64,000 bases of DNA, taken from a virus. The notes below the pieces were generated by a model that saw only the letters and a list, made by a program, of their open reading frames with translations, made no database searches and was not told where the DNA came from. The DNA lies in IMG/VR virus record IMGVR_UViG_3300021467_000006, positions 32,321 through 96,320 of that record; one strand, 5' to 3'. The translations under genes were made by a program, and so were the position numbers. Positions 1 to 23,782 of the stretch are shown piece after piece. Positions within the stretch are counted from its first letter, which is position 1. Every line of letters starts with the position of its first letter.

Positions 1-2127
1 AATAGAGCTATTGATAAAATGCTCTATGGGGGATTACCTTTTGGGCATCTTCATGAATTTTTTGGATTATCACAAACAGGCAAATGTGTAACTCCAGATA
101 CTTATCTTTTCAGCCCTGATTATGGCTTCATAATGATAGATGATATTATTTTCCCACCTTCTGGTTATAATCTCATAACGGGTAGATACTTCACAAAAAT
201 GAAAGATTTCCTACCTCCTAATTATTGGTGGGAATTGGATTATAAAATCTGTATAGAAGGAAAACAAAAACCGGAAGAAGTAGATAAGATATATTTTGCA
301 AAAAATGAAAAAGTCATAAGAATCATAACTTATAATGGATTCACAATAGCAGGCACTCCAGATCATAAAATAGAGGTTATAGATAAAAATGGAAAAGTAA
401 TAGATAAAGAACTACGAGAAATCACAAAAGATGATGAAATCAAAATAGAATTACCCAATGTAACTGAATGTCCTGGAAATAATAAACTGCCTAAATATGA
501 AATAGTAGATGAAGAAGCAATAATAGATTATTCCATATTAACAGAATTGCCTGTTGAATTGACCAATGATCTGGTAAGTTTAATAGCTTTATTGCTTACG
601 TTTTATGAATATAAAGATGGGGTTATATCTACCTTACCTACACAACAGTTTTCTTTGAATCAAATGAAAAGCGCAGATATACGCAAAACATTCAGGTTAT
701 TGCTATCCAGAGTAATAAATGTAAGCAATGAAGAACTAGATCCAAGCGAGAATATAACCCAACAATTAATACCTTATTTGTTGAATATTGGAGTAGCCTT
801 GAATTTTCCTATAGGAGCCAGATTTGTACCTTTCTGCTTATTAAGAGCTTCTAAGGATAAGATATTACGTTTCATAATAGAATTCATGGCTCTGAATGGA
901 AGAATGGAAAAGAAGAAATATTCTGTATTTTCTTTCTCATTTTATATACTTTATTTCATAAAGCTATATTTGGAATCATTAGGAATACAATCTAGAGGCT
1001 TTTATACATCTTCTGATGAAGATAAAGATTTTAGATATATAAATGTAATAACCCCTTTCCAAATGACCAGGTTAAGCCTTAAATTCGATAGGCAAAATAT
1101 AGCTAAATTATTGAATCTTGTGGATGTAGACTTTATAGAGGAAAATTATCCTTCTAAATTTGCTTTAATGGTACAGTATGCTCATCCATATTTGGAAAAG
1201 GATTTAAGTTATGTAAAAACAACGCATGATAAAGTATATAAAATACAGAAATATAAAAGCGATGTTCTTGATATAGAAATGCCAATACAGCATAAATATC
1301 TTGCTAATGGTTTTGTATCTCATAATTCGTTTTTCTTACAGAAAGCGCTTGCAAATGCCCAAAAACAATATCCTCCTACAATTGGAATTATTTTAGATAG
1401 GGAAAAAGCATATACTACAAAGAGGGCTGAATTTCTAGGTATTGAAACTGATAAAGTTATACTAGCTAAACCAGCTTCCATACCAACCCCTGAAGCAGCA
1501 AAGGATTTCATATTAGGAACTGTCAATAAAATAAGAGATAAAGATCCTGATATGCACTATCACATTGTTGTTCTTATTGACTCCTTGGCTGCTTTTATGC
1601 CTAAAGGTCTAAAGGGTGAAGATATGGGCAAAAAAGCAAAAGCCATCCATGCTGCTTTCAGGGAATTGTTGGTAATTGATTCCAAGACAATGATTCTATT
1701 TTCCAATCATGTAACATTCAATCCCAATGCAATGTTTACCAGTCCTAAAACGAAAGCATGTGGCACTGCACCTGATTATCTCAGAACCTGTGGTATAGCT
1801 CTGGATGCAAAAAAACCCATAAAAATAGGTACTAAACAGGTAGGGGTATATTTAGAAGTTATTGTGGATAAAACACGCCGTGGCCCCAGTTTCTCACGCA
1901 CAGTTATTCCTTTCTTTTTTGCTACAGGAGTTCCAGAATGGGGTGGTTATGATAGATATTTAGCATTTGAAGGAGTATTAACTCCTACCAATAAGCAAAA
2001 ATTCAATAAAATAACAGATAATAGCTTTGAATATATCTATGAAGATAAAGATACCGGTGAAAAATATAAAATAAAGGCCGGTAATGAAAAACAATTAATA
2101 GCATTATGCAAGAAATTCAATCTTTAA
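1..2127 (+). CDS. RecA/UvsX-like recombinase containing an intein; 5' end lies outside the window
   Basis: Frame is open from base 1 (NRAIDKMLYGGLPFG resembles the RecA-family LDxxLxGGLPxG motif). Walker A GLSQTGK|S is split by the intein. ILDREKA and Walker B VLIDSLAA are present. Confidence 0.9.
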   Translation, partial: NRAIDKMLYGGLPFGHLHEFFGLSQTGKCVTPDTYLFSPDYGFIMIDDIIFPPSGYNLITGRYFTKMKDFLPPNYWWELDYKICIEGKQKPEEVDKIYFAKNEKVIRIITYNGFTIAGTPDHKIEVIDKNGKVIDKELREITKDDEIKIELPNVTECPGNNKLPKYEIVDEEAIIDYSILTELPVELTNDLVSLIALLLTFYEYKDGVISTLPTQQFSLNQMKSADIRKTFRLLLSRVINVSNEELDPSENITQQLIPYLLNIGVALNFPIGARFVPFCLLRASKDKILRFIIEFMALNGRMEKKKYSVFSFSFYILYFIKLYLESLGIQSRGFYTSSDEDKDFRYINVITPFQMTRLSLKFDRQNIAKLLNLVDVDFIEENYPSKFALMVQYAHPYLEKDLSYVKTTHDKVYKIQKYKSDVLDIEMPIQHKYLANGFVSHNSFFLQKALANAQKQYPPTIGIILDREKAYTTKRAEFLGIETDKVILAKPASIPTPEAAKDFILGTVNKIRDKDPDMHYHIVVLIDSLAAFMPKGLKGEDMGKKAKAIHAAFRELLVIDSKTMILFSNHVTFNPNAMFTSPKTKACGTAPDYLRTCGIALDAKKPIKIGTKQVGVYLEVIVDKTRRGPSFSRTVIPFFFATGVPEWGGYDRYLAFEGVLTPTNKQKFNKITDNSFEYIYEDKDTGEKYKIKAGNEKQLIALCKKFNL
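85..1326 (+). mobile_element. Intein (414 aa) in the recombinase P-loop, with a probably degenerate LAGLIDADG endonuclease region
   Basis: Starts with C after GK (CVTPDT), block B GTPDHKI, block F/G VLDIEMPIQHKYLANGFVSHN, followed by Ser +1. Removing it restores GLSQTGKS. Confidence 0.92.
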
Positions 2128-7108: not shown

Positions 7109-7423
7109 ATGAACTCAAAAGAATTTCATATGAGAAAGGGCAGATTTTTTATATCTACCGATCTCCTCAATGATAATAGATCTCTAAAAATTATGATTAG
7201 GGCTTTCATTTGGTTACAGTTCATACCAATTGATGTAAGATGGGATTTCATACATCATAGATTTGAATATACAGGCTATTCACCTAGATTTGAACCAATC
7301 GAGGAGGGCAGCATTATGCCTGTTTATGTATTAAAAACTAATATAATCAAAAACAAATTAAAATTTAATCTCAAAAAAATAGGTATTATTGATTTTTCTG
7401 TTGACATGAGTTTAAGTTCATAG
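7109..7423 (+). CDS. Hypothetical protein
   Basis: ORF 6998..7423; likely start at MNSKEF (7109), after the previous stop. Confidence 0.55.
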   Translation: MNSKEFHMRKGRFFISTDLLNDNRSLKIMIRAFIWLQFIPIDVRWDFIHHRFEYTGYSPRFEPIEEGSIMPVYVLKTNIIKNKLKFNLKKIGIIDFSVDMSLSS

Positions 7424-7429
7424 TATATT
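7401..7429 (+). promoter_or_regulatory. Sigma70-type promoter of the RNA cluster / DUF2828 unit
   Basis: TTGACA-17 bp-TATATT. Confidence 0.75.
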
Positions 7430-7443
7430 ATAATTCAAGTTGA

Positions 7444-7538
7444 TGGGTAGGCAAGTTCTTAACTGCCTTGGTAAAAATTTATTTGTTACATTTTTTCAGC
7501 CAATCCTAAACCTCCTGGCAGAGCCACTTGCCTACTCA
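7444..7538 (+). ncRNA. Candidate end-paired small RNA (~95 nt)
   Basis: TGGGTAGGCAAGT (7444-7456) pairs with ACTTGCCTACTCA (7526-7538), 13 bp with one G-U; begins just after the promoter. Confidence 0.5.
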
Positions 7539-7545
7539 AATATCA

Positions 7546-7597
7546 AGGTTGGTTACAGCAAACAAAATGCCATGCGGAGGCTCTAACACCAACCTGT
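7546..7597 (+). ncRNA. ACAGCAA-motif structured RNA, unit 1
   Basis: AGGTTGGT-T-ACAGCAA...ACCAACCT-GT; internal hairpin GCC-ATGCGGA-GGC. Confidence 0.7.
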
Positions 7598-7619
7598 TTT
7601 AAAAAATTATTAACAATTA

Positions 7620-7683
7620 AGGCTGACTGCAGCAAATATAATCAATGGTTTTCAGAGGTTCGATCCCTCAAAAGTCAGCCTGT
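7620..7683 (+). ncRNA. ACAGCAA-motif structured RNA, unit 2 (carries a tRNA T-arm-like hairpin)
   Basis: AGGCTGACT-GCAGCAA...AGTCAGCCT-GT; internal GAGG-TTCGATC-CCTC at 7655-7669. Confidence 0.7.
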
Positions 7684-7692
7684 AAAAAGTTA

Positions 7693-7758
7693 GCGGGAAC
7701 TGGATGGCAGATGTTTTTCTACCCGAAAAATAGGATGGTTCGATTCCATCTTCCCGCT
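7693..7758 (+). tRNA. Shrunken tRNA-Gly-like gene (ACC in the anticodon position, minimal D arm)
   Basis: Acceptor GCGGGAA/TTCCCGC with discriminator T; T arm GATGG-TTCGATT-CCATC; anticodon arm TGTTTTT-CTACCCG-AAAAATA; D hairpin CTG-GATGG-CAG; 1-nt variable region; no encoded CCA. Confidence 0.7.
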
Positions 7759-7768
7759 CTTAAAAACA

Positions 7769-7832
7769 AGGGAGGTTACAGCAAGTTCTATGCAACTTAG
7801 CCTCATAAGCTAACCAGAAAATGCCTCCCTGT
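7769..7832 (+). ncRNA. ACAGCAA-motif structured RNA, unit 3 (carries a Met/CAT anticodon-arm-like hairpin)
   Basis: AGGGAGGT-T-ACAGCAA...GCCTCCCT-GT; internal TTAGC-CTCATAA-GCTAA at 7797-7813. Confidence 0.7.
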
Positions 7833-7852
7833 TCTTATGAAAATAAAGGCCA

Positions 7853-7920
7853 AGGCTGGGTACAGCAAACTTACGCTTATATAGCATCGGACTTTCGAAC
7901 TGATCTATAACCCAGCCTGT
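7853..7920 (+). ncRNA. ACAGCAA-motif structured RNA, unit 4 (carries a Glu/TTC anticodon-loop-like hairpin)
   Basis: AGGCTGGGT-ACAGCAA...ACCCAGCCT-GT; internal TATAG-c-ATCGG-aCTTTCGAa-CTGAT-CTATA. Confidence 0.7.
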
Positions 7921-7954
7921 TTATTAACCTTTTTAACAAATAGGAGGTCTCTCC

Positions 7955-9406
7955 ATGTTTTCCAAAACCCATGAAGGTGGAACTCAGTATCCCTTCTCTT
8001 TAGATCATCATTTAGAATTCTTCTCTAAAGCAGGCTCCCTTTTTAAGAAAAGAGAATCTTTTTATGGATCTGAAGAATCAGCTCTTTCTCTTTTCCAGAA
8101 AATGTGGGTAGTAGATGAAGAGTTATCTATGAAACTGCTCTTTTGGCTGAGAGATTGCAGAGGTGGAGCTGGAAATAGATCCGGTTTTAGAGAATGTATC
8201 AATTGGTTAGCTACCTATGATCCTAGCCTGCCTTTTGATTTTCCAAATTACAAATGGGTAAAAGCCAACTTACATCTAATCCCAAAGTATGGAAGATGGG
8301 ATGACTTGAAGGCTTTATTTGGAACTACTTTGGAAGAGAAAGCTGCAAAATTCTGGGCTGAAGCTTTAAAGAAAAGAGACATTCTTGCAGCTAAATGGGC
8401 TAAAAGGCATTATAAGCCTCTTCAAAAAGCATTAAATACCAACGAAGCTAGATTAAGGAAGATGCTTTCTAGAATTAGAAAGAATCATATAGTTGAGTAC
8501 AAATTGTGCTCTAATCTCTGGAAAGAGATTGAATATCCTAAAGTACCTTCTGTAGCAATGGCAAGATATACAAATGCTTTTGCCAGGCATGATGAAGAAG
8601 GCTTCAGGAAATTCAAAGAAGACTTAAGAAAAGGAAAGGTAGAAATCAAAGCTTCTGTACTTTTCCCCCACGATTGCGTCAGAACTGTAAGAAGTGGAGA
8701 CGCAGAAATAGCAGATGCTCAGTTTGAAGCTCTTCCTAATTATCTGGATGGTAATAAAGAGCGTATTATCGTAATTTCTGATACTTCAGGATCTATGAGT
8801 ATTCGAGTATCTGGTTCTGTCAGGGCTGTAGATATCTCTATTGGAATGGCATTGTATTGCTCTGCCAAGATTCCTAAAGATAATCCTTTCCATAAGAAAT
8901 TCATTGCATTCTGCTCTGAAGGTAGTTTTAAGGATTGGAATGGAATGAAATTTTCAGAAGCAGTAACAAGTGGAGAGATATTTGATGGTGCCATAGGTGG
9001 AACTAGAATTGATAAAGCTCTTGATTTGATACTCAAAACAGCAAGATTCTTCAATCTCACTAATGAGCAAATGCCTACTTGCTTGCTTATTGTTTCGGAT
9101 ATGCAATTTCATGAAGGTTTATCACAATGGAATTGGGGCAAAAAAGACTTCACTCCCGAATTAGTACAAACAGAAGTCAATAAAGCACTAAAGAGATGGG
9201 ATAAAGCTGGGTATAAAAGACCTAAGATAATCTACTGGAATACCGCTGGTTATGCTGGGTCTCCAGAAACAGTCAGAGCTGAAAATACAGCTTTGGTATC
9301 TGGTTTTAGTCCATCTATACTTAAAGCTATTTTCTCTGCTTCAGAATTCACACCTTATACAATTATGTTAGAAGCTATCAAGAAGTATAAAATCAATAAA
9401 CCTTAA
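7955..9406 (+). CDS. DUF2828-family protein with C-terminal vWA domain (Ro60/TROVE-like architecture)
   Basis: RDCRGGAG, YGRWDDL, LAAKWA, KVPSVAM, MIDAS DTSGSM, SDMQF, IYWN and VSGFSP motifs; AGGAGG RBS. Confidence 0.85.
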   Translation: MFSKTHEGGTQYPFSLDHHLEFFSKAGSLFKKRESFYGSEESALSLFQKMWVVDEELSMKLLFWLRDCRGGAGNRSGFRECINWLATYDPSLPFDFPNYKWVKANLHLIPKYGRWDDLKALFGTTLEEKAAKFWAEALKKRDILAAKWAKRHYKPLQKALNTNEARLRKMLSRIRKNHIVEYKLCSNLWKEIEYPKVPSVAMARYTNAFARHDEEGFRKFKEDLRKGKVEIKASVLFPHDCVRTVRSGDAEIADAQFEALPNYLDGNKERIIVISDTSGSMSIRVSGSVRAVDISIGMALYCSAKIPKDNPFHKKFIAFCSEGSFKDWNGMKFSEAVTSGEIFDGAIGGTRIDKALDLILKTARFFNLTNEQMPTCLLIVSDMQFHEGLSQWNWGKKDFTPELVQTEVNKALKRWDKAGYKRPKIIYWNTAGYAGSPETVRAENTALVSGFSPSILKAIFSASEFTPYTIMLEAIKKYKINKP

Positions 9407-9825: not shown

Positions 9826-9982
9826 AATAGTGGGATATGATATATCTGGAGCACAAATAGCAGGTTTTGAGATACCTAAAGAAAACACAGACAAAGTTAA
9901 AACTTTAATAATAGAAGAAATGGAATCGCAGATAAAAATTTTAAAAGAGATCAGGAGTAACAATGAGACCAAGTTGGCATGA
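9731..9982 (+). CDS. Hypothetical protein
   Basis: GGAGG RBS upstream; overlaps the dCMP deaminase start. Confidence 0.6.
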   Translation: MSLSLGNQVETISKLFILERNKENFKKATTLKIVGYDISGAQIAGFEIPKENTDKVKTLIIEEMESQIKILKEIRSNNETKLA

Positions 9983-10508
9983 ATATTTTATGTTAATAGC
10001 AAAAGTAGTCGCTACCCGATCTACATGCAATTCCCGTCCAATTGGAGCTGTTATAGTAAAAGATAACCGTATTCTAGCTACTGGCTACAACGGAGCTATT
10101 CCTAAAGCAACTCATTGTACAAGTCTGTTGATGGGCAAAGAGCCTTTCTGCATGAGAAGATATATGAAAGCTGAAGAACACAGCAAAATGGATTATTGCG
10201 TAGCTGTTCATGCAGAGGCTAATGCTGTGGCTCAAGCTGCAAAGATGGGAACAAGTATAGAGGGAGCTTCTATTTATTGCACAGTTTCTCCTTGTTATTC
10301 ATGTTTCAAATTATTAGCTTCTGCAGGTATAAAAAACATATTTTATGAATTGGGATATTCATCTAAGGACAAAAAAAGAGATAAATTCTGGAAGGAACAA
10401 ATTAAGAAATCAGGAATAAATATGAAGCAAATAACAATTAATGAAAATTCTATGAAATATATGTTGGAGATGATTCAGGGAATAACATCATTAAGAAGGT
10501 TTAAATGA
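9963..10508 (+). CDS. dCMP deaminase (ComEB-like)
   Basis: RPSWHEYFM, RSTC, ATGYNG, HAEANA and SPCYSC zinc motifs. Confidence 0.95.
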   Translation: MRPSWHEYFMLIAKVVATRSTCNSRPIGAVIVKDNRILATGYNGAIPKATHCTSLLMGKEPFCMRRYMKAEEHSKMDYCVAVHAEANAVAQAAKMGTSIEGASIYCTVSPCYSCFKLLASAGIKNIFYELGYSSKDKKRDKFWKEQIKKSGINMKQITINENSMKYMLEMIQGITSLRRFK

Positions 10509-10520
10509 GGAGGAGACAAA

Positions 10521-10718
10521 ATGGATGAATTGCAAGAAAAAATAACAATAGAAATCCCAGAAACTGCTTTTATAGAATTAATTTTAGGTTATGTAAGAGA
10601 AAAGATGGAAATAAATATAGAAGATCCAGAAATAGAAATAAGATATTCTAAAGGATTAAATAATCCAGGAAATATGATTGTTTCAGTCCACGGTAAGGCC
10701 ATCAAAAGGAACCTATAA
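10521..10718 (+). CDS. Hypothetical protein
   Basis: GAGGAG RBS, tight gene packing. Confidence 0.6.
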   Translation: MDELQEKITIEIPETAFIELILGYVREKMEINIEDPEIEIRYSKGLNNPGNMIVSVHGKAIKRNL

Positions 10719-10922
10719 ATGAGATATTTTTCTTGTAGAGATCTGCTATCTGGAAATATTAGTTCTCTTAAGGTTGGTGACAGAATAGTAGGTATTGGAT
10801 TTGTTCAAACAGAAAGAGAAGCACAATTGATAAAAGATCTCTGCAAAACTATAAAAAATTGTCATGATAAAACATGGAGTAAAAATATAAAAAGGAAGAG
10901 AAGAGGCTGTTATGAATATTAA
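10719..10922 (+). CDS. Hypothetical protein
   Basis: Abuts both neighbours. Confidence 0.5.
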   Translation: MRYFSCRDLLSGNISSLKVGDRIVGIGFVQTEREAQLIKDLCKTIKNCHDKTWSKNIKRKRRGCYEY

Positions 10923-11268
10923 GAAAATCATAAAAAAACATTATAACTTCTATAAAAAACCTCAATTAATTCAACTTGTACCTACTTTAGAGATTCATAT
11001 TGGATATGGATTGAATTTAACAAAAACAGGAATAGACAGAGATATAGCTGAAGAATTATTAAGCAGGGAAATTACAAAAATATGGAGGCATCTAAGAGCT
11101 AAATATAATTGGTGGGAAGATTTAGATCATGATACTCAAACAAAGCTCTTATTCATAGTTTATGATTCTTATGGTTATGATTTAAATGAGGAAATAATAG
11201 ATTCTATAGAGAAAGGAGAATTGGATATAATTGATAACATTTTCAACCAGATTTTAGAAGGAGCTTGA
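10912..11268 (+). CDS. Degenerate T4-lysozyme-like (GH24) protein
   Basis: IKKH...HIGYGLNL...GIDRDIAEELL...WWEDLD pattern; the usual catalytic HEG motif and the C-terminal part are missing. Confidence 0.45.
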   Translation: MNIKKIIKKHYNFYKKPQLIQLVPTLEIHIGYGLNLTKTGIDRDIAEELLSREITKIWRHLRAKYNWWEDLDHDTQTKLLFIVYDSYGYDLNEEIIDSIEKGELDIIDNIFNQILEGA

Positions 11269-11269
11269 A

Positions 11270-11626
11270 ATGATGACTCTACACAGACTTCCTCTAAATT
11301 GTTTCACTAAAAGAAGTAACCTCTTAAGCAGTTTGAATTATTGTAACAGGTTTATGGATTATTTAGTAGACGTTCTGGATGTTACAGAAATAGGAAGGAT
11401 AGCACATTTAATTGGCGGTGCAAGCTGGAATGGTAAAGAACCAGGAGTATCCATAACCAGCATGTATATAGAAAGCGGGTCTCAATTACATACATGGCCT
11501 GAAAAGAATGAATTCTATCTAGATATAACATCCTGTAAAGAATTTTCCAATGCAGTAGTCATTACTGCTGTAGAAAACTTCTTTGATGCGGAGGTGACAG
11601 AATTGTGCGTTATATTGAAGGAATAA
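11270..11626 (+). CDS. speD: Pyruvoyl-dependent decarboxylase proenzyme, S-adenosylmethionine decarboxylase (SpeD) family
   Basis: PGVS...IES(G)SQLHTWPE...YLDITSCKEF matches the class 1b AdoMetDC pattern. Confidence 0.75.
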   Translation: MMTLHRLPLNCFTKRSNLLSSLNYCNRFMDYLVDVLDVTEIGRIAHLIGGASWNGKEPGVSITSMYIESGSQLHTWPEKNEFYLDITSCKEFSNAVVITAVENFFDAEVTELCVILKE

Positions 11627-12015
11627 GAGTTTGGGGAGGTTCTTTTTTAGAATTAGTTCTGAAAGAGAATAACTGGGATTTGAAGAAAGCTAAAAAGAAT
11701 TTAGAGAAGGAATATTATGAAACTTCAACTACAAGAATGGCTAAAAGATGGGGTTTTCATTATCAAACAGTATATAACACAATAAAGAAACTGGGGATAA
11801 AAATAAAGCCCAAAGGATGGGCAGGCACTAAAACCAGATTCCAATTAAAGGTGGAGGAATTTGGTGGTTATGAAAAAATGATGGAAAAATTCAAATATGA
11901 AAGGTTAGTGGATATTGCAAGGAAGTTAGGCTTTTCAGGTTGCTATACTAAGAATTGCTTATTAAAAGCCGGATATGATTGGGATAAAAACAAAGGAGAG
12001 TGGATAAAGCTATGA
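11605..12015 (+). CDS. Tandem-HTH DNA-binding protein, paralog of 12000..12407
   Basis: STTRMAKRWGFHYQTVYNTIKKLGIKIK and LVDIARKLG. Confidence 0.7.
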   Translation: MRYIEGIRVWGGSFLELVLKENNWDLKKAKKNLEKEYYETSTTRMAKRWGFHYQTVYNTIKKLGIKIKPKGWAGTKTRFQLKVEEFGGYEKMMEKFKYERLVDIARKLGFSGCYTKNCLLKAGYDWDKNKGEWIKL

Positions 12016-12407
12016 TAGAAATAAAAAACGGTACTTTCCTTAAATTAGCGTTGGAAGAATGTGGCAATGATTTAGAAGCTCTCAAAGAAAGATTAAGCAA
12101 AGAATATGACAAATATGGAACTACAAAAATGGCTGAAAAGTGGGGATATCATCCAAATACTATATGGATGGCCTTGAAAAGATTAGGAATAAAAATAAAG
12201 GAAAAGGGATGGCAGGAATACCATGAAACACGTATGAAAAAAGCATTAAAAGAAATTGGAGGCATAGAAACACTGCTTAAAACAAGAGAGAAGACAAAAG
12301 ACATAGCTACAAAGATGGGTATTTCTCCGCAGTATTTAAATAATTTTATGTGGAAACATGGTTATAAGAGATCAAGAAGAGAAAAAAGATGGGTAAAAGC
12401 AAGCTAG
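12000..12407 (+). CDS. Tandem-HTH DNA-binding protein, paralog of 11605..12015
   Basis: GTTKMAEKWGYHPNTIWMALKRLGIKIK and TKDIATKMG. Confidence 0.7.
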   Translation: MDKAMIEIKNGTFLKLALEECGNDLEALKERLSKEYDKYGTTKMAEKWGYHPNTIWMALKRLGIKIKEKGWQEYHETRMKKALKEIGGIETLLKTREKTKDIATKMGISPQYLNNFMWKHGYKRSRREKRWVKAS

Positions 12408-12410
12408 GAA

Positions 12411-12734
12411 TTGATAAGGAGGGAAGCAATGGATGATAAGCCACCATTCAAACCGGAGAATAAAAAACTTTACCAAAAAGCACTGAACAAATGGGGAATG
12501 GAATTTCAGTTATTAATGTTGATGGAAGAATGCTCAGAATTGATTACCGCTACTTCAAAGGTCTTTAGATATAATAACCTGGAGGTAATAGATAGGCTTG
12601 CTGAAGAAATAGCTGATGTTGAAATAATGATCGAACAGATAAAATATGCCATTGGCTTACAAGAAGCATGTAGGTTGCACAAAGAGAAGAAAATTTACAG
12701 ACTTTCAAAGCTATTGGAGGAAAGAGATGAATGA
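12411..12734 (+). CDS. MazG-like NTP pyrophosphohydrolase
   Basis: MEECSEL...LAEEIADVEIM. Confidence 0.8.
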   Translation: MIRREAMDDKPPFKPENKKLYQKALNKWGMEFQLLMLMEECSELITATSKVFRYNNLEVIDRLAEEIADVEIMIEQIKYAIGLQEACRLHKEKKIYRLSKLLEERDE

Positions 12735-15392
12735 ATACTCTACTATGGATAATATGAGTGAAATCATAAAAAAGGGTTTTAAATCCAAACAAGAAGCGAT
12801 TAATTACATGGCTGCTTACCCTGAGAAACATATGCCGTCATTCTTTGTTAAGGAAATAAGGGAATATGAACTCTGGGATTGTTTTGTCAAACAGGCTAAA
12901 AAGAAGAAAGATAAAGCGAGGAAAAGAGATGAGTAGTAGTTGGAGAATAATAATTGGAATGTTTCTAATCATGCTGCCTCTTATGGTTAGTTTGGGATAT
13001 AGTGTCTGGTCATTGGGTTTAAGACAGACGATTTTAATTATGTTGTTAGTCGTTTCCATATTAGGATGTGTGGGTGGTGGACTTTATCTCTTACAAAATG
13101 GCAATGAAGAGGAGGGAGAATAAGATGAGTACAGATGATACATACGAGAAAGAAATTAAATATGATAAAGAGAAAGCCAGAAAGATTCTTATGAAGATAT
13201 TCGAGTGTAAAGAAACTAATACAAAAAAGGAAGAGGATGAGAAATGAAGAAAATTAAAGATATAGCAATATGGATATTATTTCAATTAATAGCAATAACA
13301 TTGCTTTATTTGGCGGGAGTCAAGGATGTAAAAGGCGCTGAAAATGTCTTAAAATTTATCATAGCTATTAATTGTGTTTTTTCTATTCTTATCCTTATTT
13401 TAGTTACTAAGGAAGATGAGAGAGTTATTTCAACATTAGCTAATAAATATAGAATCCCTTACGCAATTGACATGATTTACAGCTTACTTTTTGCATGTGC
13501 TTTAGCATGGTTTGGCTATACAGTCTTAGCTATAGTAGATTTTGTAGCTGGCTTAGCCCAAATAGGCACATCTCAAGAAGTAGAGAAGTTAAAAAAAGGA
13601 GAAAAATGTGAATAATGAGAATCAATATGAAGCAATAACAGAGACAATTTTGGTAGACATGACAAAAAAAGAAGAAATTTGGAAGCAAGTTAAACGAATG
13701 GAAGAGGTCTTCAACGAACACGAAAAAGTCAACGATGATTATCACATGGCCAGAGCTACAATGCTGGCTAACTTTGGAGAAAAAGGAAGCATAAGAAAAG
13801 GGTTAATCAATTCTAATCAAACATTAACACAAATGATCGTTGAAGCCTTGGGTTGTTTAGTGGAAAAGGTCAATCAATATGAAGGGGCTATTATAGAAAA
13901 AGAAGAGACAAAAAGATTAATAAAATTGTAATTCCCTTATAATAAAAGAAAGGGGAAAATAAATAAATTCAATTATTGCAAAGGAGAGGAATGAAATACT
14001 TTCTACAACAACTTATAGCACTCCTGCTTATTGATTCTCCAGTACTTGTACTTCTTTATTATGCAATAGCTGAGGAAGTCCTTATACCTACACGGTTCAT
14101 GGTTCTTAATTTTGCCATATTAGTCACGTTGGGAATATTTATATATCCTTTTGGAGGGAAGAGATGAGCAGTTTTTTCTGTGAATATTGTGGGAAGGAAA
14201 TAATTGACACTGAGAATGGTTATATCACTGGATGTGAACATTATCCAATAGAAGAAAAATCCCAGCAACTAGATCCCAAAATGGAGGTATTATTAATAGA
14301 TATGCAAGAAGCTATAAAACCTAATTTAGAATATAAAATCATAACTGGAAATATTACAAAACTACAAACAATGCTAAATCAATGGCGTCACATGTATGAA
14401 TTAAATATCATTCAAATGATACAATATAAACAAGGATTAGCCATTTTATTGACAAGAAGGAGGATTAAATAATGGGTGAATACATTATATATCTGAAAGA
14501 AGGGGAAGCTATAGATTACAACATGGCCGAGGATGGAAAATATAAACCTGATTATAGAGGAAAAATAGTTGTTCCTTCAGAAATGAGAAGTGATGGATTA
14601 TGGCCTGTATATTTCTATAAAAATGGTTCTATGTATGCCTCTATAGATCCCAATCTACTCACCGAATTCATTGAGCCTCTAATTAAAAAATTAGAAGCGC
14701 AAAAAACAGAATATGAACATGAACATAAAATAGAAGAGCTACATAAAAAATTAGAAAAGGAAACCTCTGCAAGCGAAAATATTGCAAAGATACAAGGTTT
14801 ATTGAGATTATTGGATAAAGTTAATCCAGATGATTTAATACGTCTGAAGAAGGAAGGGATTTTATAAAGGGGTCTAATAATGATATTTAGGGGATTAGAT
14901 ATACCATATGGCAAGATTTCTGAGAAAACAAAAATAGATAAGCAATATCTATCAAATCTATTTTTAGATAATTATAAAGGAGAAATATCTATAATTGAAG
15001 ATGCAAGCCAAGATAGAATAGAATTAATGGAAATAATCACTCTCCAACCAAGGATAGCTATTAAAAAAGCGATTAACTATCCTCTTAATTGGTATGGCAG
15101 CCATGCTAAAATAGGTGAAGAAGCTGTAGAAAGATACTATAATGACAATTTATACTTAGTAATAGATCTCTGGATATCTAAAGAAATAAGAAAAGTTTTC
15201 GATAAGTATAAGAAAATCATATTAGCTGATGCTCAAGGAGTTATTGTTAAATATATTAATTACTCATGGGCAGACAAGCAAATATTAGATTATTGGTGGA
15301 TTACAATTTCACAACGAGATTATGATTTTTCGCAGTTAAAATCATCTGCAACATATTTTGTAGAAGCAAAATATAAAATAGGTATTATCTAG
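12728..15392 (+). CDS. Run of small co-oriented hypothetical genes (about 12728-12936, 12929-13123, 13244-13615, 13608-13931, 13976-14167, 14164-14472, 14472-14867, 14880-15392), several with transmembrane segments
   Basis: Tightly packed or overlapping ORFs with purine-rich RBSs; no family recognised. Confidence 0.6.
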
Positions 15393-15407
15393 ATCTATAA
15401 AAAAGGA

Positions 15408-15779
15408 TTGGAAATGAAAACATTTACTTGTCTGAAATGTGGAGGAAAATATATTCCAAAACAAGGAACGTTAAAAGACCTGGAATTCTGCGGGTTTATA
15501 TTAACAGTAAAAGATGTTGAATATTATGAATGCGAAAAATGTGGTAGGCTACTATTTTCCTCAGAAACTGCTGAAAAGATAGAAAAAGAGTTTTCTAAAG
15601 TTAAAAAAGAAGAAGGGTGTAAAGCATGTAAATATTCCTATTCTGGTTATTTCAAATACCTTAAAGGAAATGTCTGCATACATAACACAATAATAAAATA
15701 TTACCCCAAAGGAAGGATATTAAATCCTGATTTTAAAATACCTTCTTGGTGTCCACTTTTAAAAGGAGTTAAAACATGA
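15408..15779 (+). CDS. YgiT/MqsA-type zinc-finger protein
   Basis: CLKCGG...VKDVEYYECEKCGRLLFSSE, plus further Cys motifs. Confidence 0.65.
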   Translation: MEMKTFTCLKCGGKYIPKQGTLKDLEFCGFILTVKDVEYYECEKCGRLLFSSETAEKIEKEFSKVKKEEGCKACKYSYSGYFKYLKGNVCIHNTIIKYYPKGRILNPDFKIPSWCPLLKGVKT

Positions 15780-17165
15780 AGATACATCCAAAAGATATGC
15801 TATTAGAACCAACAAACAATGAAGATCTTTTAAAATATCCCAGAGATATGATGGAAATTGAAGAAGAAGCCCGAAAAGCCTTTAAAGCTAAAGAGCTGAG
15901 AGAAGAATATCTCGAATCTATCAAAAATAAAAAAGAAAGAAGAATAGTTCTGCAGAAGGAAAGGACATTGGAAGATGTATTATTAAGCGTAACAAAACTA
16001 TATCCAAACGGTTGTACTGTTAATTTCATAATAGAGGGAAGGAAGGTATATATTAAATATGGTTGTCATGGTTTTACAGCTTTCTTTTCTTTTAGTGGTG
16101 ATGAGAAATTATTTATTGATTGGTTCGAAGAAAATAAAGACGATAAAGAAAGGGTTAGGGTAGATCATATAATACATCCTAAAATCTTAGCAGAACTTAG
16201 AAAGAGAGTATATCAATGCCCTATATGTGGAGGGGAAATATATTCAATGTAAAAGTAACTGATTAAAAAGGAGTATAAAATGCGTAAACCTTGTGCTTTC
16301 AACAGGAATTCTTACTTGATACATGTTTCGGATTTTGAAAAACTTTTGGTTTCAGAAGCAGATATCGAATTGAAAGAATTCGATTATAATCCAAAAGATC
16401 TTGCTCTGGAATTGGCTTATACAAGATATCTGCTAGCAAAAGCTGAAAAGGAACTTGGTAAGAAACTAGATTTTGACGAATCTTATCCCATAAGGAACAA
16501 ATCAGGCAAAAGGGGAAGAGAGGAAGTAGATGTTGAAATACCTAACTCAGATGTAGTTGTTAAGATAACCTCTGAAGGCAATGGGATAATGTGGGAATGG
16601 AAAAATATAGAAAATATCAAATTGACTTTCCATAGAAGCGAATGGCCTTTGCATCCACGTTCTGAGTTCTCTTTTGAAGAATTACGGGAAATATCGCTTA
16701 CATCAGCTTATATTGTTGTTGAGTTCTTTGAGCCTCATTAATAGGATGAATTATGTTTATATTAAAATTATTTTGTATTTTATTATGGGCATTTATATGT
16801 ATCTTTAAACTCTGTATTATAGTTATTGTAGCGGTGTGTGTAGCAATTGGAGTTATTGGAATACGAGGATAGTGAATGATGGAATCTAATACCATTTTAG
16901 ATTGTTTATTATCGGTATTTATGCAGCTATTGGGGATAGAAATATGAATAAGGAATTAATAAAATGGACTTGCAAATATTGCTCTGCATATTTTGAATTT
17001 TATATGCATAAAAATTCAGATCAACCCCGTATTATCTCTGAAGATAGAATAATGATTCGGGAAACTACATTGTATTGCCCTTGGTGTGGAACACCTGTAA
17101 AAATAAGAGGAAAAATAGCTAAAATAATTATGGAAGATGCAAAATCTAAATTTATTGTTTCATAA
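15776..17165 (+). CDS. Hypothetical genes 15776-16252, 16280-16741 and 16902-17165 (zinc-ribbon motifs in the first and last)
   Basis: ORFs with RBSs; CPICGG; CKYC...CPWCG. Confidence 0.6.
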
Positions 17166-17667: not shown

Positions 17668-17875
17668 TGGAGCCATCGTCGAATCAGCATTTAAGCGCTG
17701 GACTGGGGTGGTGTGGCCTCCCAGGTCTGGCTTTACAGGCCATTCGCTGTTGCATATCCCCCAACAGCGAATCCCCAGCCTATCCCCTGCCTTTCGGCAC
17801 CAGGACGGGGTGCCCTCTTAAAGGGCAAATCTGGGCAGCGCCACTTTTACAGCGAGGAGACGCCAGCCTCGGCTC
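17668..17875 (-). ncRNA. Candidate ~210-nt GC-rich structured RNA of unknown family
   Basis: About 60% GC in AT-rich flanks; ends pair (GAGCC/GGCTC); hairpins include TGCC-GAAA-GGCA (GNRA on the - strand) and an 11-bp ATTCGCTGTTG/CAACAGCGAAT stem. Confidence 0.6.
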
Positions 17876-20674: not shown

Positions 20675-21226
20675 TTATCCAAATAATAATGAAGATTCAA
20701 TTATTTTAGAATCATATCTATAAATGTTTATTAATCTATCGCTACATTCTTTCCATGTATTGCTAAAGTGCTTGCCCTTTCTCTCTCCTATTTTCTTCCA
20801 ACCCATAGCTTTCCAAAATAAATTGGATTCTAAATCGTAAGCACAACCACAACTAAAGGATAGGGTTTGAACATTGCTCTTTCCATATTCTAAAACTTCA
20901 GTTAGTAACATTCTTCCTCTTTGCATCATTCTAGCATCTTCCTGAAGGCATATTTGGGCTATTTTACCTATTCTTATTTTGGAAAGGGGATTACCAAAAG
21001 ATGCAAGGACAAAACCAACTAAATCACCATTTATTTCACAAACATATAATTTATCATTACATCTATCAGACCATCTATTTTTGCTAGGTTTTAATCCTGT
21101 TATAGCAGCTTCATATGCTTGTTTAGGTATAAAACCTATGCTAAAACTATTCTTTTTAGATAAATCTATTATATATTTTAGATCTTCTAATCTTGCTGGT
21201 CTTACTAACTCATCAGACATGTTCAA
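20675..21226 (-). CDS. GNAT-family acetyltransferase
   Basis: VRPARLEDL, NGDLVGFV, QICLQEDARMMQRGRML, SNLFWKAMGW. Confidence 0.8.
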   Translation of the reverse strand: MNMSDELVRPARLEDLKYIIDLSKKNSFSIGFIPKQAYEAAITGLKPSKNRWSDRCNDKLYVCEINGDLVGFVLASFGNPLSKIRIGKIAQICLQEDARMMQRGRMLLTEVLEYGKSNVQTLSFSCGCAYDLESNLFWKAMGWKKIGERKGKHFSNTWKECSDRLINIYRYDSKIIESSLLFG

Positions 21227-22963: not shown

Positions 22964-23030
22964 TGGAGCGGGTTGCAGGAACTGCCCCTGCTCATCCCGT
23001 TGGTTAGGGATGCTCGCTGACCGAACCCGC
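22964..23030 (-). tRNA. Second shrunken tRNA-Gly-like gene, with encoded CCA
   Basis: GCGGGTT-CGGTCAGCGAG-CATCCC-TAACCAAC-GGGATG-A-GCAGG-GGCAGTT-CCTGC-AACCCGC-T-CCA. Confidence 0.7.
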
Positions 23031-23042
23031 TTCTATCTTATA

Positions 23043-23450
23043 CTATGCAGAAAGATCAATTTTTACCCACCCAGTGATTAATTTAGGATGAACATAAGTT
23101 ACTTTTACTTCATCCTTTCCTTGCAAATTTACAAAATATACATATCCAATTCTATTTGGTTTCCAAATTTTACCAAGCAAATCACAAGCCTCTATTTCAA
23201 GGAGTCCTATAAAATTACCACCATACTTTGCATAACTAATAGCCATGTTAAAATCATCCGTCAGATAGACGTGTAAATGCTTTAACTTTGCTTGGACATA
23301 TTCAGAAATTCTCTTCTTAAATTTACATTTTAGTTGGCCACAAAAAGAATACTTCTCTATTACATTATTTATGGTTTGTTTCACATCAATTGGTTTTAAA
23401 CCAGTAATTAAAACTTCATTAGGAGAAATTTTTGTTCCATGATATAGCAT
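23043..23450 (-). CDS. ADP-ribosyltransferase-fold protein (Tpt1/KptA- or ART-like)
   Basis: LYHGT...GLKP...HVYLTDDFNMAISYA...YVYFVN; likely start at ATG 23450. Confidence 0.55.
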   Translation of the reverse strand: MLYHGTKISPNEVLITGLKPIDVKQTINNVIEKYSFCGQLKCKFKKRISEYVQAKLKHLHVYLTDDFNMAISYAKYGGNFIGLLEIEACDLLGKIWKPNRIGYVYFVNLQGKDEVKVTYVHPKLITGWVKIDLSA

Positions 23451-23475
23451 TAGAATGCTCACCAACCGAACCCGC
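23450..23475 (-). repeat. Diverged copy of the 5' half of the tRNA-like gene at 22964-23030
   Basis: GCGGGTTCGGTTGGTGAGCATTCTAA versus GCGGGTTCGGTCAGCGAGCATCCCTAA. Confidence 0.75.
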
Positions 23476-23476
23476 C

Positions 23477-23782
23477 TTAATCCTTCTTCTGCAACAACCC
23501 AGCCACTATCGGTAGTGCTATTTGTGCTAACTGCAACCATCCTCCACCGCCTGCACTACCAACTATGCCCGCAATTACATTCATTACATCCTTGATCTGG
23601 AGCTCGCCGAGGTTGATGCCTTGCTGATCTAGCAACTTGGCAATAGCGCTCAAGTCTAGTCCTTGTGGCTGAGCGTAGAACTGTTGCTCGCCAATTTTGA
23701 TACTACGGACTTGGGCCTCAGCTGGAATGTCTAGCTGGGTTGTAATTGCATGTGTTACGACTACTTCTATGTCCTGTGGCAT
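23477..23782 (-). CDS. Hypothetical protein with hydrophobic C-terminus
   Basis: GGAGG RBS, 101 aa. Confidence 0.65.
   Translation of the reverse strand: MPQDIEVVVTHAITTQLDIPAEAQVRSIKIGEQQFYAQPQGLDLSAIAKLLDQQGINLGELQIKDVMNVIAGIVGSAGGGGWLQLAQIALPIVAGLLQKKD

What the first reader, a model, noticed from the sequence alone, without database searches (positions are those of the whole stretch)
7693..7758. Shrunken tRNA-Gly-like gene with ACC at the anticodon position, embedded in the RNA array
Seen: a 66-nt cloverleaf with acceptor GCGGGAA/TTCCCGC and U73, a canonical T arm, no nucleotides between acceptor and a 3-bp D hairpin, a 7-bp anticodon stem and a 1-nt variable region. Established: G1-C72, C2-G71, U73 and C35/C36 are bacterial GlyRS identity elements, and tRNA-Gly(ACC) is essentially absent from bacteria. 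Inference: it may be glycylated but non-ribosomal (amino-acid donor, decoy, or ligand of the Ro-like protein).
Basis: partly seen in the sequence, partly recalled or inferred. Interest (0 to 1): 0.75.

Follow-up and report, generated by a model that had tools for sequence, protein, structure and literature searches.

The report
Miniature glycine tRNA look-alike in phage
A hydrothermal-vent phage keeps, under strong selection, a shrunken 66-base copy of a glycine tRNA inside the small-RNA operon of its Ro60-like protein; it still carries every mark for being loaded with glycine but probably cannot read codons, so it is most likely a glycine-carrying or decoy RNA that works outside protein synthesis.

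Summary
ARAGORN calls 7693-7759 tRNA-Gly(ACC), with 0 calls in 3.8 Mb of simulated sequence. It is the only tRNA-type gene in this complete 96-kb phage. Rfam's tRNA models stay below threshold.

It is not a decaying pseudogene. Relatives whose neighbouring gene differs at 23-26% of third codon positions differ from it at only 2-4 of 66 bases. These changes lie in the D loop and at position 37, and one turns G.U into G-C.

It sits in one promoter-driven array with four "CAGCAA-handle" RNAs, upstream of a DUF2828 protein. I show that this protein folds like Ro60.

A model built from this element alone finds a second, diverged mini tRNA-Gly-like RNA 15 kb away. The two share the whole bacterial GlyRS identity set, while 10 of 22 base pairs changed on both sides.

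Similar mini elements in other viral contigs directly follow Mom genes, and Mom is published to use Gly-tRNAGly. This phage has no Mom.

A pairable C32-G38, C37, the missing 8-9 linker and the 1-nt variable region argue against decoding.

Best reading (0.5): a chargeable, non-decoding tRNA-Gly mimic. Charging, processing and Ro binding are untested.

Earlier AI notes of this scan reported mini tRNA-Gly RNAs in other phages. I found no paper describing them.

The parts
7401..7429 (+). Sigma-70-type promoter of the RNA array: TTGACA (7401-7406), 17-nt spacer, TATATT (7424-7429).
   Evidence: Read from the sequence and matched by pattern. It is conserved in L005 and L039. The 9-mer CATAGTATA that overlaps the -10 box occurs only here and upstream of element B in the whole genome.
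7444..7538 (+). Leader hairpin RNA with a 13-bp closing stem and no CAGCAA handle.
   Evidence: It folds as a separate module. It is 92% identical in L005 and absent in L039, so it is dispensable for the array.
7546..7597 (+). Handle RNA 1: stem closed by GGTTGGTT-a-CAGCAA ... ACCAACC-TG.
   Evidence: Regex and fold. The same handle lies upstream of DUF2828 genes in many loci, including Aeromonas phage 4_4572.
7620..7683 (+). Handle RNA 2, whose body carries a T-arm mimic (GAGG-TTCGATC-CCTC).
   Evidence: The body is only 73-77% identical in L005 and L039, but it keeps a GGTTCGA-type hairpin in L039.
7693..7758 (+). The finding: a 66-nt miniature tRNA-Gly-like RNA ('A'). Acceptor 7693-7699 with 7751-7757. 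D hairpin 7700-7710. Anticodon-type stem 7712-7718 with 7726-7732. Loop 7719-7725 with ACC at 7721-7723. T arm 7734-7750. Discriminator U at 7758.
   Evidence: ARAGORN and RNAfold. It is 94-100% conserved in L038, L005 and L039. Covariance models R1 and R2.
7770..7833 (+). Handle RNA 3, whose body carries an anticodon-arm mimic with loop CTCATAA (CAU).
   Evidence: It is 92-98% identical in relatives.
7853..7920 (+). Handle RNA 4, whose body carries an anticodon-arm mimic. The loop is CTTTCGA (UUC) here and CTTTGGA (UUG) in L005, L038, L039 and in contigs of runs X5 and X7.
7955..9406 (+). DUF2828/DUF7788 protein (483 aa), Ro60-like ring plus vWA domain, with RBS AGGAGG at 7942-7947.
   Evidence: Pfam PF11443 and PF25043, and phrog_850 'RNA-binding protein'. 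AlphaFold2 model with pLDDT 88.4 and pTM 0.88. The top 13 PDB matches are all Ro60 (1YVR, 9KOP phage phiLo, 2NVO), with E from 2e-7 to 2e-3 and TM 0.45-0.60.
22964..23030 (-). Second mini tRNA-Gly-like RNA ('B'): acceptor GCGGGTT/AACCCGC, U73, encoded CCA, 6-bp stem CATCCC/GGGATG, 8-nt loop TAACCAAC, T stem GCAGG/CCTGC with the non-canonical loop GGCAGTT.
   Evidence: Lead from earlier notes e1-6056082 and e1-6056069. Checked here: sequence; cloverleaf by RNAfold; best non-self hit of a model built from A alone (28.7 bits, E about 2e-6). It is conserved in the sister phage with one loop change, and homology ends at its 3' end.

Best explanation
The element is a functional, miniaturised derivative of a bacterial-type glycine tRNA that works off the ribosome.

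Proposed course of events (each step is marked shown or inferred):
1. It is transcribed from the promoter at 7401-7429 as one unit of a polycistronic small-RNA array that runs into the Ro60-like DUF2828 gene. The layout is shown; transcription is inferred.
2. It folds on its own into a compact cloverleaf. The D-loop GG and a canonical TTCGATT T loop can form the tRNA elbow. The fold is predicted; the 3-D shape is inferred.
3. Host RNase P and 3' trimming release it, and the host CCA-adding enzyme completes it (inferred).
4. Host GlyRS charges it, because it carries G1-C72, C2-G71, G3-C70, G4-C69, U73, C35 and C36. The sequence determinants are shown; charging is inferred.
5. Three sets of features keep it out of normal decoding (inferred): its anticodon hairpin (7-bp stem, pairable C32-G38, C37), the missing 8-9 linker and the 1-nt variable region.
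6. The glycyl-RNA, or the uncharged mimic, then serves as one of two things. It may be a private carrier of activated glycine for a transferase not yet recognised in this phage. Or it may be a decoy that soaks up host factors aimed at Gly-tRNAGly. In either case it acts alongside the other tRNA-part-displaying RNAs of the Ro-like operon.
For: Selection:
- The element differs at 2 of 66 bases (L005) and 4 of 66 bases (L039). Third codon positions of the adjacent gene differ by 26% and 23%. Binomial P = 6e-7 and 2.5e-4.
- The changes are confined to the first three D-loop bases (the 3' GG is kept), position 37, and G.U to G-C at 7713/7731.
- The metagenome variants in runs X5 and X7 have 16 differences in 538 nt of the array and none inside the element.

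Glycine identity:
- All published determinants of bacterial GlyRS are present (PMC10464925).
- A covariance model built from A alone finds a second element, B, as the best other hit in 64 kb.
- A and B pair in 100% of cells, and 10 of 22 pairs changed on both sides. Slid controls give 45-55% paired cells and 1-3 such pairs.
- Yet both keep G1-G5/C68-C72, U73 and ACC.
- Three further mini elements (L141, L113, L102) share the design and always keep NCC in loops of 5-6 nt.

Precedent for use:
- The L141 element starts 14 nt after a full-length Mom gene (PF25680, E = 1e-40). Its homologue in L113 follows a truncated Mom C-terminus.
- Mom uses Gly-tRNAGly as co-substrate (PMC13219725).

Against decoding:
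- RNAfold closes the loop to 5 nt in the window. In L039, where C37 becomes A and can pair with U33, it closes to 3 nt.
- The base before CC is A or U across the mini elements.
- The Rfam tRNA model fails.

Context:
- Other DUF2828 loci hold real tRNAs and tRNA-shaped RNAs with 5-nt loops.
- The neighbouring units display a T arm and anticodon arms.
Against: - There is no expression, processing or charging data.
- This complete phage has no Mom. About 100 ORFs were scanned and showed no Fem, L/F-transferase or other known aminoacyl-tRNA-using family. Its one GNAT is generic. So the glycine-carrier branch has no consumer.
- Unlike B, element A keeps U33, a formal 7-nt loop, a canonical T loop and the D-loop GG. 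These are what a decoder needs.
- GlyRS of Lactobacillus is reported to need the whole L shape (PMC10464925), and a shrunken core might not provide it.
- Only three distinct A sequences exist. The A/B comparison is effectively two lineages, on an alignment fitted to the structure.
- The shared acceptor stem could partly reflect descent from tRNA-Gly genes. The same GCGGGTT/AACCCGC stem is common in ordinary phage tRNA-Gly(UCC) genes.
Confidence: 0.5

Rival explanations
1. It is a working, if unusually small, elongator tRNA-Gly. It reads GGU, or all GGN codons through an unmodified A34. For example, it could be a replacement that escapes a host nuclease or toxin aimed at the host's tRNA-Gly.
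For: - U33, a 7-nt loop, the TTCGATT T loop, the D-loop GG and a 12-bp acceptor/T stack are all present and conserved.
- The combined length of anticodon stem, linker and D hairpin (7+1+3) is close to the canonical 5+1+4.
- GGU is a common codon in this phage: 564 of 1690 Gly codons.
- Relatives with 55-62% identical DUF2828 carry real tRNA arrays at the same place.
- An ACC/GGU pairing is functional in a ribosomal mimic system (PMC6720975).
Against: - C37 in three of four copies, where tRNAs carry a purine (general tRNA knowledge).
- A Watson-Crick-capable C32-G38 pair. In L039 the C37-to-A change adds a possible U33-A37 pair, so the fold predicts a 3-5-nt loop.
- No 8-9 linker, a 3-bp D stem and a 1-nt variable region.
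- Rfam tRNA models are below threshold.
- The paralogue B lacks U33 and the T-loop and D-loop elbow bases, yet keeps the same identity set.
- One tRNA for one amino acid gives little codon-usage benefit.
Confidence: 0.17
2. It is an uncharged structural tRNA mimic of the Ro-like system. It would be a free-standing counterpart of the tRNA-like domain of YrlA Y RNAs. The DUF2828 ring would bind or present it, or it would be shown to host tRNA-binding enzymes or nucleases. Glycine would play no role.
For: - It is co-transcribed with four handle RNAs whose bodies display a T arm and anticodon arms, directly upstream of a protein that folds like Ro60.
- Other DUF2828 loci contain tRNA-shaped RNAs with closed 5-nt loops.
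- Bacterial YrlA Y RNAs mimic tRNA, and a phage Ro60 binds phage-encoded Y-like RNAs (PMC4201824; PMC12135203).
Against: - It lacks the CAGCAA handle that marks the presumed DUF2828 partners.
- Handle-RNA arrays in L004, L006 and many other loci work without any such element.
- This reading does not explain why A and B keep precisely the GlyRS determinants while everything else diverged.
- It also does not explain why B, far from the Ro-like gene, has an encoded CCA.
Confidence: 0.15
3. It is kept only as a processing signal. As a tRNA-shaped punctuation mark it would be cut by RNase P and RNase Z to release the neighbouring small RNAs and the DUF2828 mRNA from the precursor.
For: - It sits in the middle of a polycistronic RNA array.
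- The acceptor/T-arm minihelix and elbow, which are the parts RNase P and RNase Z recognise, are the invariant parts.
- T4 and other phages process small stable RNAs from tRNA clusters (general knowledge).
Against: - There is one such element for five other RNAs.
- Related arrays in L004, L006, L003 and others have no tRNA-like unit at all.
- The anticodon-type hairpin and ACC are as conserved as the acceptor, which processing does not require.
- B stands alone right behind a -10-like box, with nothing to release upstream.
Confidence: 0.1
4. It is a decaying remnant of a tRNA-Gly gene, left over from a lost tRNA array.
For: - Relatives carry tRNA arrays around the DUF2828 gene.
- The D arm and variable region look deleted.
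- tRNA models score it low.
Against: - It is 94-100% identical across lineages whose synonymous sites have diverged 23-26%.
- All 22 pairs are intact in every copy.
- The one stem change is G.U to G-C.
- A second copy has the same re-proportioned design and 10 compensated pairs.
Confidence: 0.03

Closest known systems
Non-proteogenic tRNA-Gly isoacceptors (NP1-NP3) of Staphylococcus aureus and S. epidermidis (PMC7826273)
   Same: These are tRNA-Gly paralogues that GlyRS still charges but that bind EF-Tu and the ribosome poorly. They supply glycine to a non-ribosomal transferase (FmhB/FemA/FemB). Their D and T regions are altered while the glycine identity is kept.
   Different: They are full-size cellular tRNAs with a UCC anticodon and a known consumer. 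This one is phage-encoded and shrunken to 66 nt (no 8-9 linker, 3-bp D hairpin, 7-bp anticodon stem, 1-nt variable region). It has ACC, and this genome has no recognised consumer.
Gly-tRNAGly as co-substrate of phage Mu Mom, a GNAT-fold DNA adenine modifier (PMC13219725; bioRxiv 10.1101/2023.03.24.534169)
   Same: This shows that phages use activated glycine on tRNA-Gly outside translation. Mini tRNA-Gly-like elements of the same design directly follow Mom genes in two viral contigs (L141 and L113).
   Different: The papers use host tRNA-Gly. In the text I searched they do not mention phage-encoded mini tRNAs. The window phage and its sister have no Mom homologue.
YrlA-type bacterial and phage Y RNAs with Ro60/Rsr (Chen et al. 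2014, PMC4201824; Thermus phage phiLo Ro60 with Yrl1/Yrl2, PMC12135203)
   Same: These are small RNAs encoded next to a Ro60-type ring protein. They include a tRNA-like module with T-arm and D-arm mimicry, and phages carry them too.
   Different: In YrlA the tRNA-like domain is fused to the Ro-binding stem. Here the tRNA-like RNA is a separate unit with free acceptor ends and a discriminator. The partner protein is DUF2828, which resembles Ro60 only by fold. Rfam Y RNA models do not match.
D-arm-reduced mitochondrial tRNAs (for example metazoan mt-tRNA-Ser(AGY))
   Same: They have a reduced D region, short connectors and a lengthened anticodon stem. ARAGORN in mitochondrial mode also calls the element.
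   Different: Those tRNAs decode on co-adapted mitochondrial ribosomes with their own elongation factors. Nothing suggests such adaptation in a bacterial host.
Small stable RNAs and tRNA-like RNAs processed from tRNA clusters (phage T4 species 1 and 2 RNAs; mascRNA of MALAT1). Recalled from general knowledge, not checked here.
   Same: These are tRNA-shaped, non-decoding RNAs released by tRNA-processing enzymes from longer transcripts.
   Different: They are not known to keep a complete aminoacylation identity set.

Membership tests
Canonical elongator tRNA (Rfam RF00005, clan CL00001) | Score at or above the curated gathering threshold of the tRNA covariance model. | tested here: not met
   The best clan match is tRNA-Sec at 22.5 bits against a gathering score of 47 (E = 0.065). 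RF00005 scores lower and finds nothing in the whole genome.
Canonical elongator tRNA (Rfam RF00005, clan CL00001) | Standard core: 2-nt 8-9 linker, 4-bp D stem, 5-bp anticodon stem, 4-5-nt (or long) variable region. | tested here: not met
   There is no linker, the D stem has 3 bp, the anticodon stem has 7 bp, and the variable region is 1 nt.
Canonical elongator tRNA (Rfam RF00005, clan CL00001) | Open 7-nt anticodon loop with U33 and a purine at position 37. | tested here: inconclusive
   U33 and a formal 7-nt loop are present. But position 37 is C in three of four copies, C32-G38 can pair, and RNAfold closes the loop to 5 or 3 nt.
Canonical elongator tRNA (Rfam RF00005, clan CL00001) | Elbow elements: T loop TTCRANN and D-loop GG. 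| tested here: met
   The T loop is TTCGATT. The D loops are GATGG, GGTGG and ATTGG, with the 3' GG invariant.
Substrates of bacterial GlyRS (glycine identity set) | G1-C72, C2-G71, purine4-pyrimidine69, U73, C35 and C36 (PMC10464925). | tested here: met
   All are present in A and in all its variants, and also in B.
Substrates of bacterial GlyRS (glycine identity set) | An L-shaped body accepted by the enzyme, and actual glycylation. | not testable with these tools
   This needs an in vitro charging assay or acid-gel northern blots.
DUF2828-associated 'CAGCAA-handle' RNAs | 5' and 3' ends closed by a stem, with the CAGCAA motif on the 5' side and CTG on the 3' side. | tested here: not met
   The element contains no CAGCAA. 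Its ends form a tRNA acceptor stem.
YrlA / Y RNA (Rfam RF02553, RF00019) | A match to the family model, and a Ro-binding stem fused to the tRNA-like domain. | tested here: not met
   No Y RNA family is reported in 7300-8000 even at E up to 10.
Mom-linked mini tRNA-Gly-like elements (undescribed; L141 and L113 type) | GCGGG acceptor with U73; a D hairpin abutting the acceptor; a 6-7-bp anticodon-type stem with NCC in a small loop. | tested here: met
   The design is shared. Model R2, built from A and B, scores L141 at 30.9 bits and L113 at 26.3 bits.
Mom-linked mini tRNA-Gly-like elements (undescribed; L141 and L113 type) | Adjacency to a Mom (PF25680) gene, and an encoded CCA. | tested here: not met
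   Neither this complete phage nor its sister has a Mom homologue. Element A has no encoded CCA.
tRNA pseudogene | Evolves at about the neutral rate and accumulates stem-breaking changes. | tested here: not met
   2-4 changes in 66 nt against 23-26% at third codon positions. All pairs are kept.

The most novel reading that the evidence does not exclude
Phages encode a so far undescribed class of miniature glycine-acceptor RNAs. They keep only what GlyRS needs (acceptor stem, U73, C35 and C36 on a compact scaffold) and are invisible to tRNA finders. They would supply or sequester activated glycine outside translation. In some phages they would feed Mom-type DNA modification. In this phage, one copy has been recruited into the operon of a Ro60-like RNP that displays tRNA parts, and a second copy sits behind a small gene of unknown family. 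That would point to further glycyl-RNA-dependent reactions or to anti-defence decoys.
Probability: 0.4. Interest if true: 0.85.

Novelty: new variant of a known kind. Interest (0 to 1): 0.7.

Why it matters
If this RNA is charged but not used for decoding, phages privatise an activated amino acid with a stripped-down tRNA. That would extend the staphylococcal "non-proteogenic tRNA-Gly" principle to viruses. It would also give the recently discovered tRNA-dependent DNA modification by Mom a dedicated carrier.

It would further define the minimal RNA that a bacterial GlyRS accepts. It would explain why an ACC "anticodon", avoided in real tRNA-Gly, is tolerated here: the first base would not matter.

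Its place in the operon of a Ro60-like protein, among RNAs that display tRNA arms, links two little-understood phage systems. It offers a simple experimental handle, because the RNA is 66 nt long and can be transcribed and tested for charging.

In practice, such elements are missed or mislabelled by tRNA annotation.

Tried and rejected
- **Expression.** No RNA holder is listed among public runs for 7400-8400. Only DNA contigs from hydrothermal-vent and marine metagenomes could be laid.
- **More copies of A.** Exact or degenerate pattern scans of IMG/VR found only the sister phage. A scan of 185,579 species genomes for the T-arm/acceptor 21-mer found nothing.
- **Other mini copies.** Model R2 found none in the rest of G000, in G001 or in about 60 DUF2828 loci. 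It gave only weak hits to real tRNAs.
- **A consumer enzyme.** Mom (PF25680) is absent from G000 and G001. The GNAT at 20675-21226 is generic (phrog_1249, weak rimI) and shows no Mom or PDB relative by sequence. 65 small ORFs gave only DUF7239, AdoMet_dc, Dbr1_C (weak) and DUF7830.
- **The 137-aa ORF before B.** It matches no family. It does not resemble the L141 Mom.
- **DUF2828 by sequence.** A sequence-profile search against PDB gave nothing. Only the fold search showed Ro60.
- **Integration-site (attP) reading.** Rejected: both acceptor strands are present, the genome has direct terminal repeats, and no integrase was seen.
- **Covariation within A.** This is too thin. There are three distinct sequences and one one-sided change in a stem.

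Full report
**Where the window lies.** The window is bases 32321-96320 of a complete 96,320-bp IMG/VR phage genome with direct terminal repeats. The genome has 33.6% G+C, and its DNA is held mainly by hydrothermal-vent metagenomes. Genes around the finding are typical of a large lytic phage: a UvsX/RecA protein with an intein, SbcCD, dCMP deaminase and family A polymerase.

**Observation.** The 66-nt cloverleaf is in the sequence exactly as described.
- ARAGORN calls tRNA-Gly(acc) at 7693-7759, the only tRNA call in the window. It makes no call in 60 simulated 64-kb sequences of the same composition.
- RNAfold returns the four-way junction as both minimum-energy and centroid structure. This holds for the element alone and within the whole 518-nt transcript.
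- RNAfold's junction has a 3-bp D hairpin abutting the acceptor, a long anticodon-type stem and a canonical T arm.
- Rfam does not accept it as a tRNA. The best match is 22.5 bits to tRNA-Sec, and RF00005 finds nothing anywhere in the genome.

**Surroundings.** A TTGACA-17-TATATT promoter (7401-7429) is followed by six modules:
- a leader hairpin;
- two stem-closed RNAs with the motif CAGCAA;
- the tRNA-like element;
- two more CAGCAA RNAs;
- a ribosome-binding site;
- a 483-aa DUF2828/DUF7788 gene.

I modelled the protein from 35 homologues (pLDDT 88.4, pTM 0.88). Its 13 best PDB matches are all Ro60. They include the Ro60 of Thermus phage phiLo (9KOP) and Deinococcus Rsr, with E from 2e-7 to 2e-3. 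So "Ro-like" holds at the level of fold, although a sequence profile finds no PDB relative.

The bodies of the handle RNAs carry tRNA parts. One has a T arm (7620-7683). One has a CAU anticodon arm (7770-7833). One has an anticodon arm that reads UUC here but UUG in close relatives.

DUF2828 genes occur in 693 phage records. In the loci I fetched they often lie inside tRNA arrays. Real tRNAs sit within 2.5 kb in about 18 of 52 loci, and tRNA-Val or tRNA-Ile lies directly upstream in the 55-62% relatives. One such array (L032) also holds tRNA-shaped RNAs with 5-nt loops.

**Is it a relic?** No.
- The element occurs in four sources: the window, L038 (identical), L005 (the sister phage G001) and L039.
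- Against L005 and L039 it is 97% and 94% identical. Third codon positions of the adjacent gene are 74% and 77% identical, giving binomial P of 6e-7 and 2.5e-4.
- The few changes fall in the first three D-loop bases, at position 37 (C to A), and at 7731, where G.U becomes G-C.
- The acceptor, the T arm, ACC and the D-loop GG never vary.
- L039 has lost the leader hairpin but kept this element.
- Handle arrays in L004, L006 and others have no such unit. So it is not needed to process the neighbouring RNAs.

**A second copy.** Earlier notes of this scan (e1-6056082, e1-6056069) pointed to 22964-23030 on the minus strand. I checked this independently.
- A covariance model built only from the three A variants, run without filters over the window, returns that site as the best non-self hit. 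It scores 28.7 bits (E about 2e-6) and aligns end to end.
- Element B has acceptor GCGGGTT/AACCCGC, U73, an encoded CCA, a small D hairpin, a 6-bp stem, the 8-nt loop TAACCAAC and a non-canonical T loop.
- On the model-fitted alignment of A and B, every cell pairs and 10 of 22 pairs differ on both sides. Slid controls give 45-55% pairing and 1-3 such pairs.
- What the two share is the set that bacterial GlyRS reads: G1-C72, C2-G71, purine4-pyrimidine69, U73, C35 and C36 (PMC10464925).
- B is conserved in the sister phage with one loop change. Homology between the two phages ends at its 3' end.

Two caveats apply. This is effectively a two-lineage comparison on a fitted alignment. The same acceptor stem is also common in ordinary phage tRNA-Gly(UCC) genes.

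**The design elsewhere.** I scanned IMG/VR for short elements with B's acceptor and CCA. Besides normal tRNA-Gly genes, this gave three further mini elements that ARAGORN misses: L141, L113 and L102. In each, a D hairpin abuts the acceptor, the anticodon-type stem has 7 bp, and the loop of 5-6 nt contains ACC or UCC.
- In L141 the element begins 14 nt after a full-length Mom gene (PF25680, E = 1e-40).
- In L113 the homologous element follows the truncated C-terminus of a Mom gene at the contig end.
- Mom of phage Mu was recently shown to use Gly-tRNAGly as its co-substrate for DNA adenine modification (PMC13219725). The parts of that paper I searched do not mention phage-encoded carriers.
- Two targeted full-text searches turned up no paper on miniature phage tRNA-Gly.

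Earlier AI notes of this scan (e1-5742188, e1-5728570, e1-5632212) had proposed the Mom link in other phages. I confirm it for two contigs. I also show that it does not apply here: the window phage and its sister have no Mom.

**Decoder or not?**

For decoding:
- Element A has U33, a nominal 7-nt loop, a perfect T loop and the D-loop GG.
- GGU is frequent, at 564 of 1690 glycine codons.
- An ACC/GGU pair can work on the ribosome (PMC6720975).

Against decoding:
- Position 37 is C.
- C32-G38 can pair. The C37-to-A change in L039 adds a possible U33-A37 pair, so the fold closes the loop to 5 or 3 nt.
- The core lacks the 8-9 linker and most of the variable region.
- tRNA models fail.
- Across the mini elements the base before CC and the loop size vary freely, while CC is fixed. 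That pattern fits recognition by GlyRS rather than by codons.

That pattern would also explain why ACC, avoided in real tRNA-Gly (PMC6720975), is tolerated here.

**Verdict.** The best-supported reading is a selected, non-decoding tRNA-Gly mimic that keeps glycine-acceptor identity and is expressed with the Ro-like RNP's RNAs (confidence 0.5). Whether it delivers glycine to an unknown enzyme, acts as a charged decoy (for instance against toxins that target Gly-tRNAGly), or is handled by the Ro-like ring cannot be decided.
- About 100 ORFs scanned show no known aminoacyl-tRNA-using family.
- The only GNAT is generic.
- The small ORF before B could not be classified.

The rivals are a true mini decoder (0.17), an uncharged Ro-system mimic (0.15), a processing signal (0.10) and a pseudogene (0.03).

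Not shown: expression, processing, CCA addition, charging and any protein contact.

Noticed in passing
window 22964-23540 (- strand): The second mini tRNA-Gly-like RNA, B (22964-23030), lies 12 nt after a 137-aa ORF (23043-23453). This ORF starts MLYHGT and has conserved VYLTDD and LLEIEAC motifs. It matches no Pfam, PHROG or NCBIfam family. Four homologues exist in the protein collection. Homology with the sister phage covers the ORF and B and stops at B's 3' end. My structure model was too poor (pLDDT 54.7) to test that.
   Followed up: partly
L141:4576-5266; L113:4258-4490 (- strand): In two high-GC viral contigs a mini tRNA-Gly-like element directly follows a Mom-family gene. The element has a GCGGGTT acceptor, U73, an encoded CCA, and a 5-6-nt loop containing ACC or UCC. 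The Mom match is PF25680 at E = 1e-40 in L141; L113 has only the Mom C-terminus at the contig end. ARAGORN misses both elements.
   Followed up: partly
L102:3535-3602: A 68-nt mini tRNA-Gly(UCC)-like element with CCA lies after a Mu F-like head gene, in a complete 65.9-kb virus (63% GC) that has no Mom homologue.
   Followed up: partly
window 7880-7912: The hairpin in the body of handle RNA 4 looks like an anticodon arm. Its loop reads CTTTCGA (UUC, Glu-like) in the window but CTTTGGA (UUG, Gln-like) in L005, L038, L039 and in contigs of runs X5 and X7, with matching stem changes.
   Followed up: partly
window 7388-7428 (+) and 23038-23059 (-): ATTGAT(T/C)TTTCTG and the 9-mer CATAGTATA both precede the RNA array and element B. 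The 9-mer occurs nowhere else in the 96-kb genome. At the array an 18-nt insert carrying TTGACA separates the two motifs.
   Followed up: partly
L032:1990-2270; L057:1985-2058: Other DUF2828 arrays hold odd tRNA-type genes. L032 has two tRNA-shaped RNAs with 5-nt loops, one of which ARAGORN labels 'tRNA-???'. L057 has a tRNA-Ile with anticodon AAT, another rare A34 species.
   Followed up: no
L004:2690-2930; L063:1490-1600: In the 66-70% relatives, three to four 27-nt units of the form AGCGAGCCA-N9-10-AGACACCC flank the handle RNAs upstream of the DUF2828 gene. They are absent from the window.
   Followed up: no
window 17704-17826 (- strand): This is the only Rfam match above its gathering score in the window: EGFOA RNA (RF02955, 49.8 bits). 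It lies at the strand-switch region between the early and late gene blocks.
   Followed up: no
G000 9849-16032 (L091), L092:5458-7926, and one small ORF among the 65 scanned (place not resolved): The early region encodes a radical SAM protein, a 698-aa protein with a weak PPDK_N match next to a DSP-type phosphatase, and a family A DNA polymerase with an N-terminal UDG-superfamily domain. Separately, one of the 65 small ORFs scanned genome-wide matches AdoMet decarboxylase; which ORF it is was not resolved. Together these might point to nucleotide or DNA modification chemistry.
   Followed up: no
window 19-2127: The UvsX/RecA-type recombinase gene is interrupted by an intein (PF14890 plus PF00154).
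   Followed up: no
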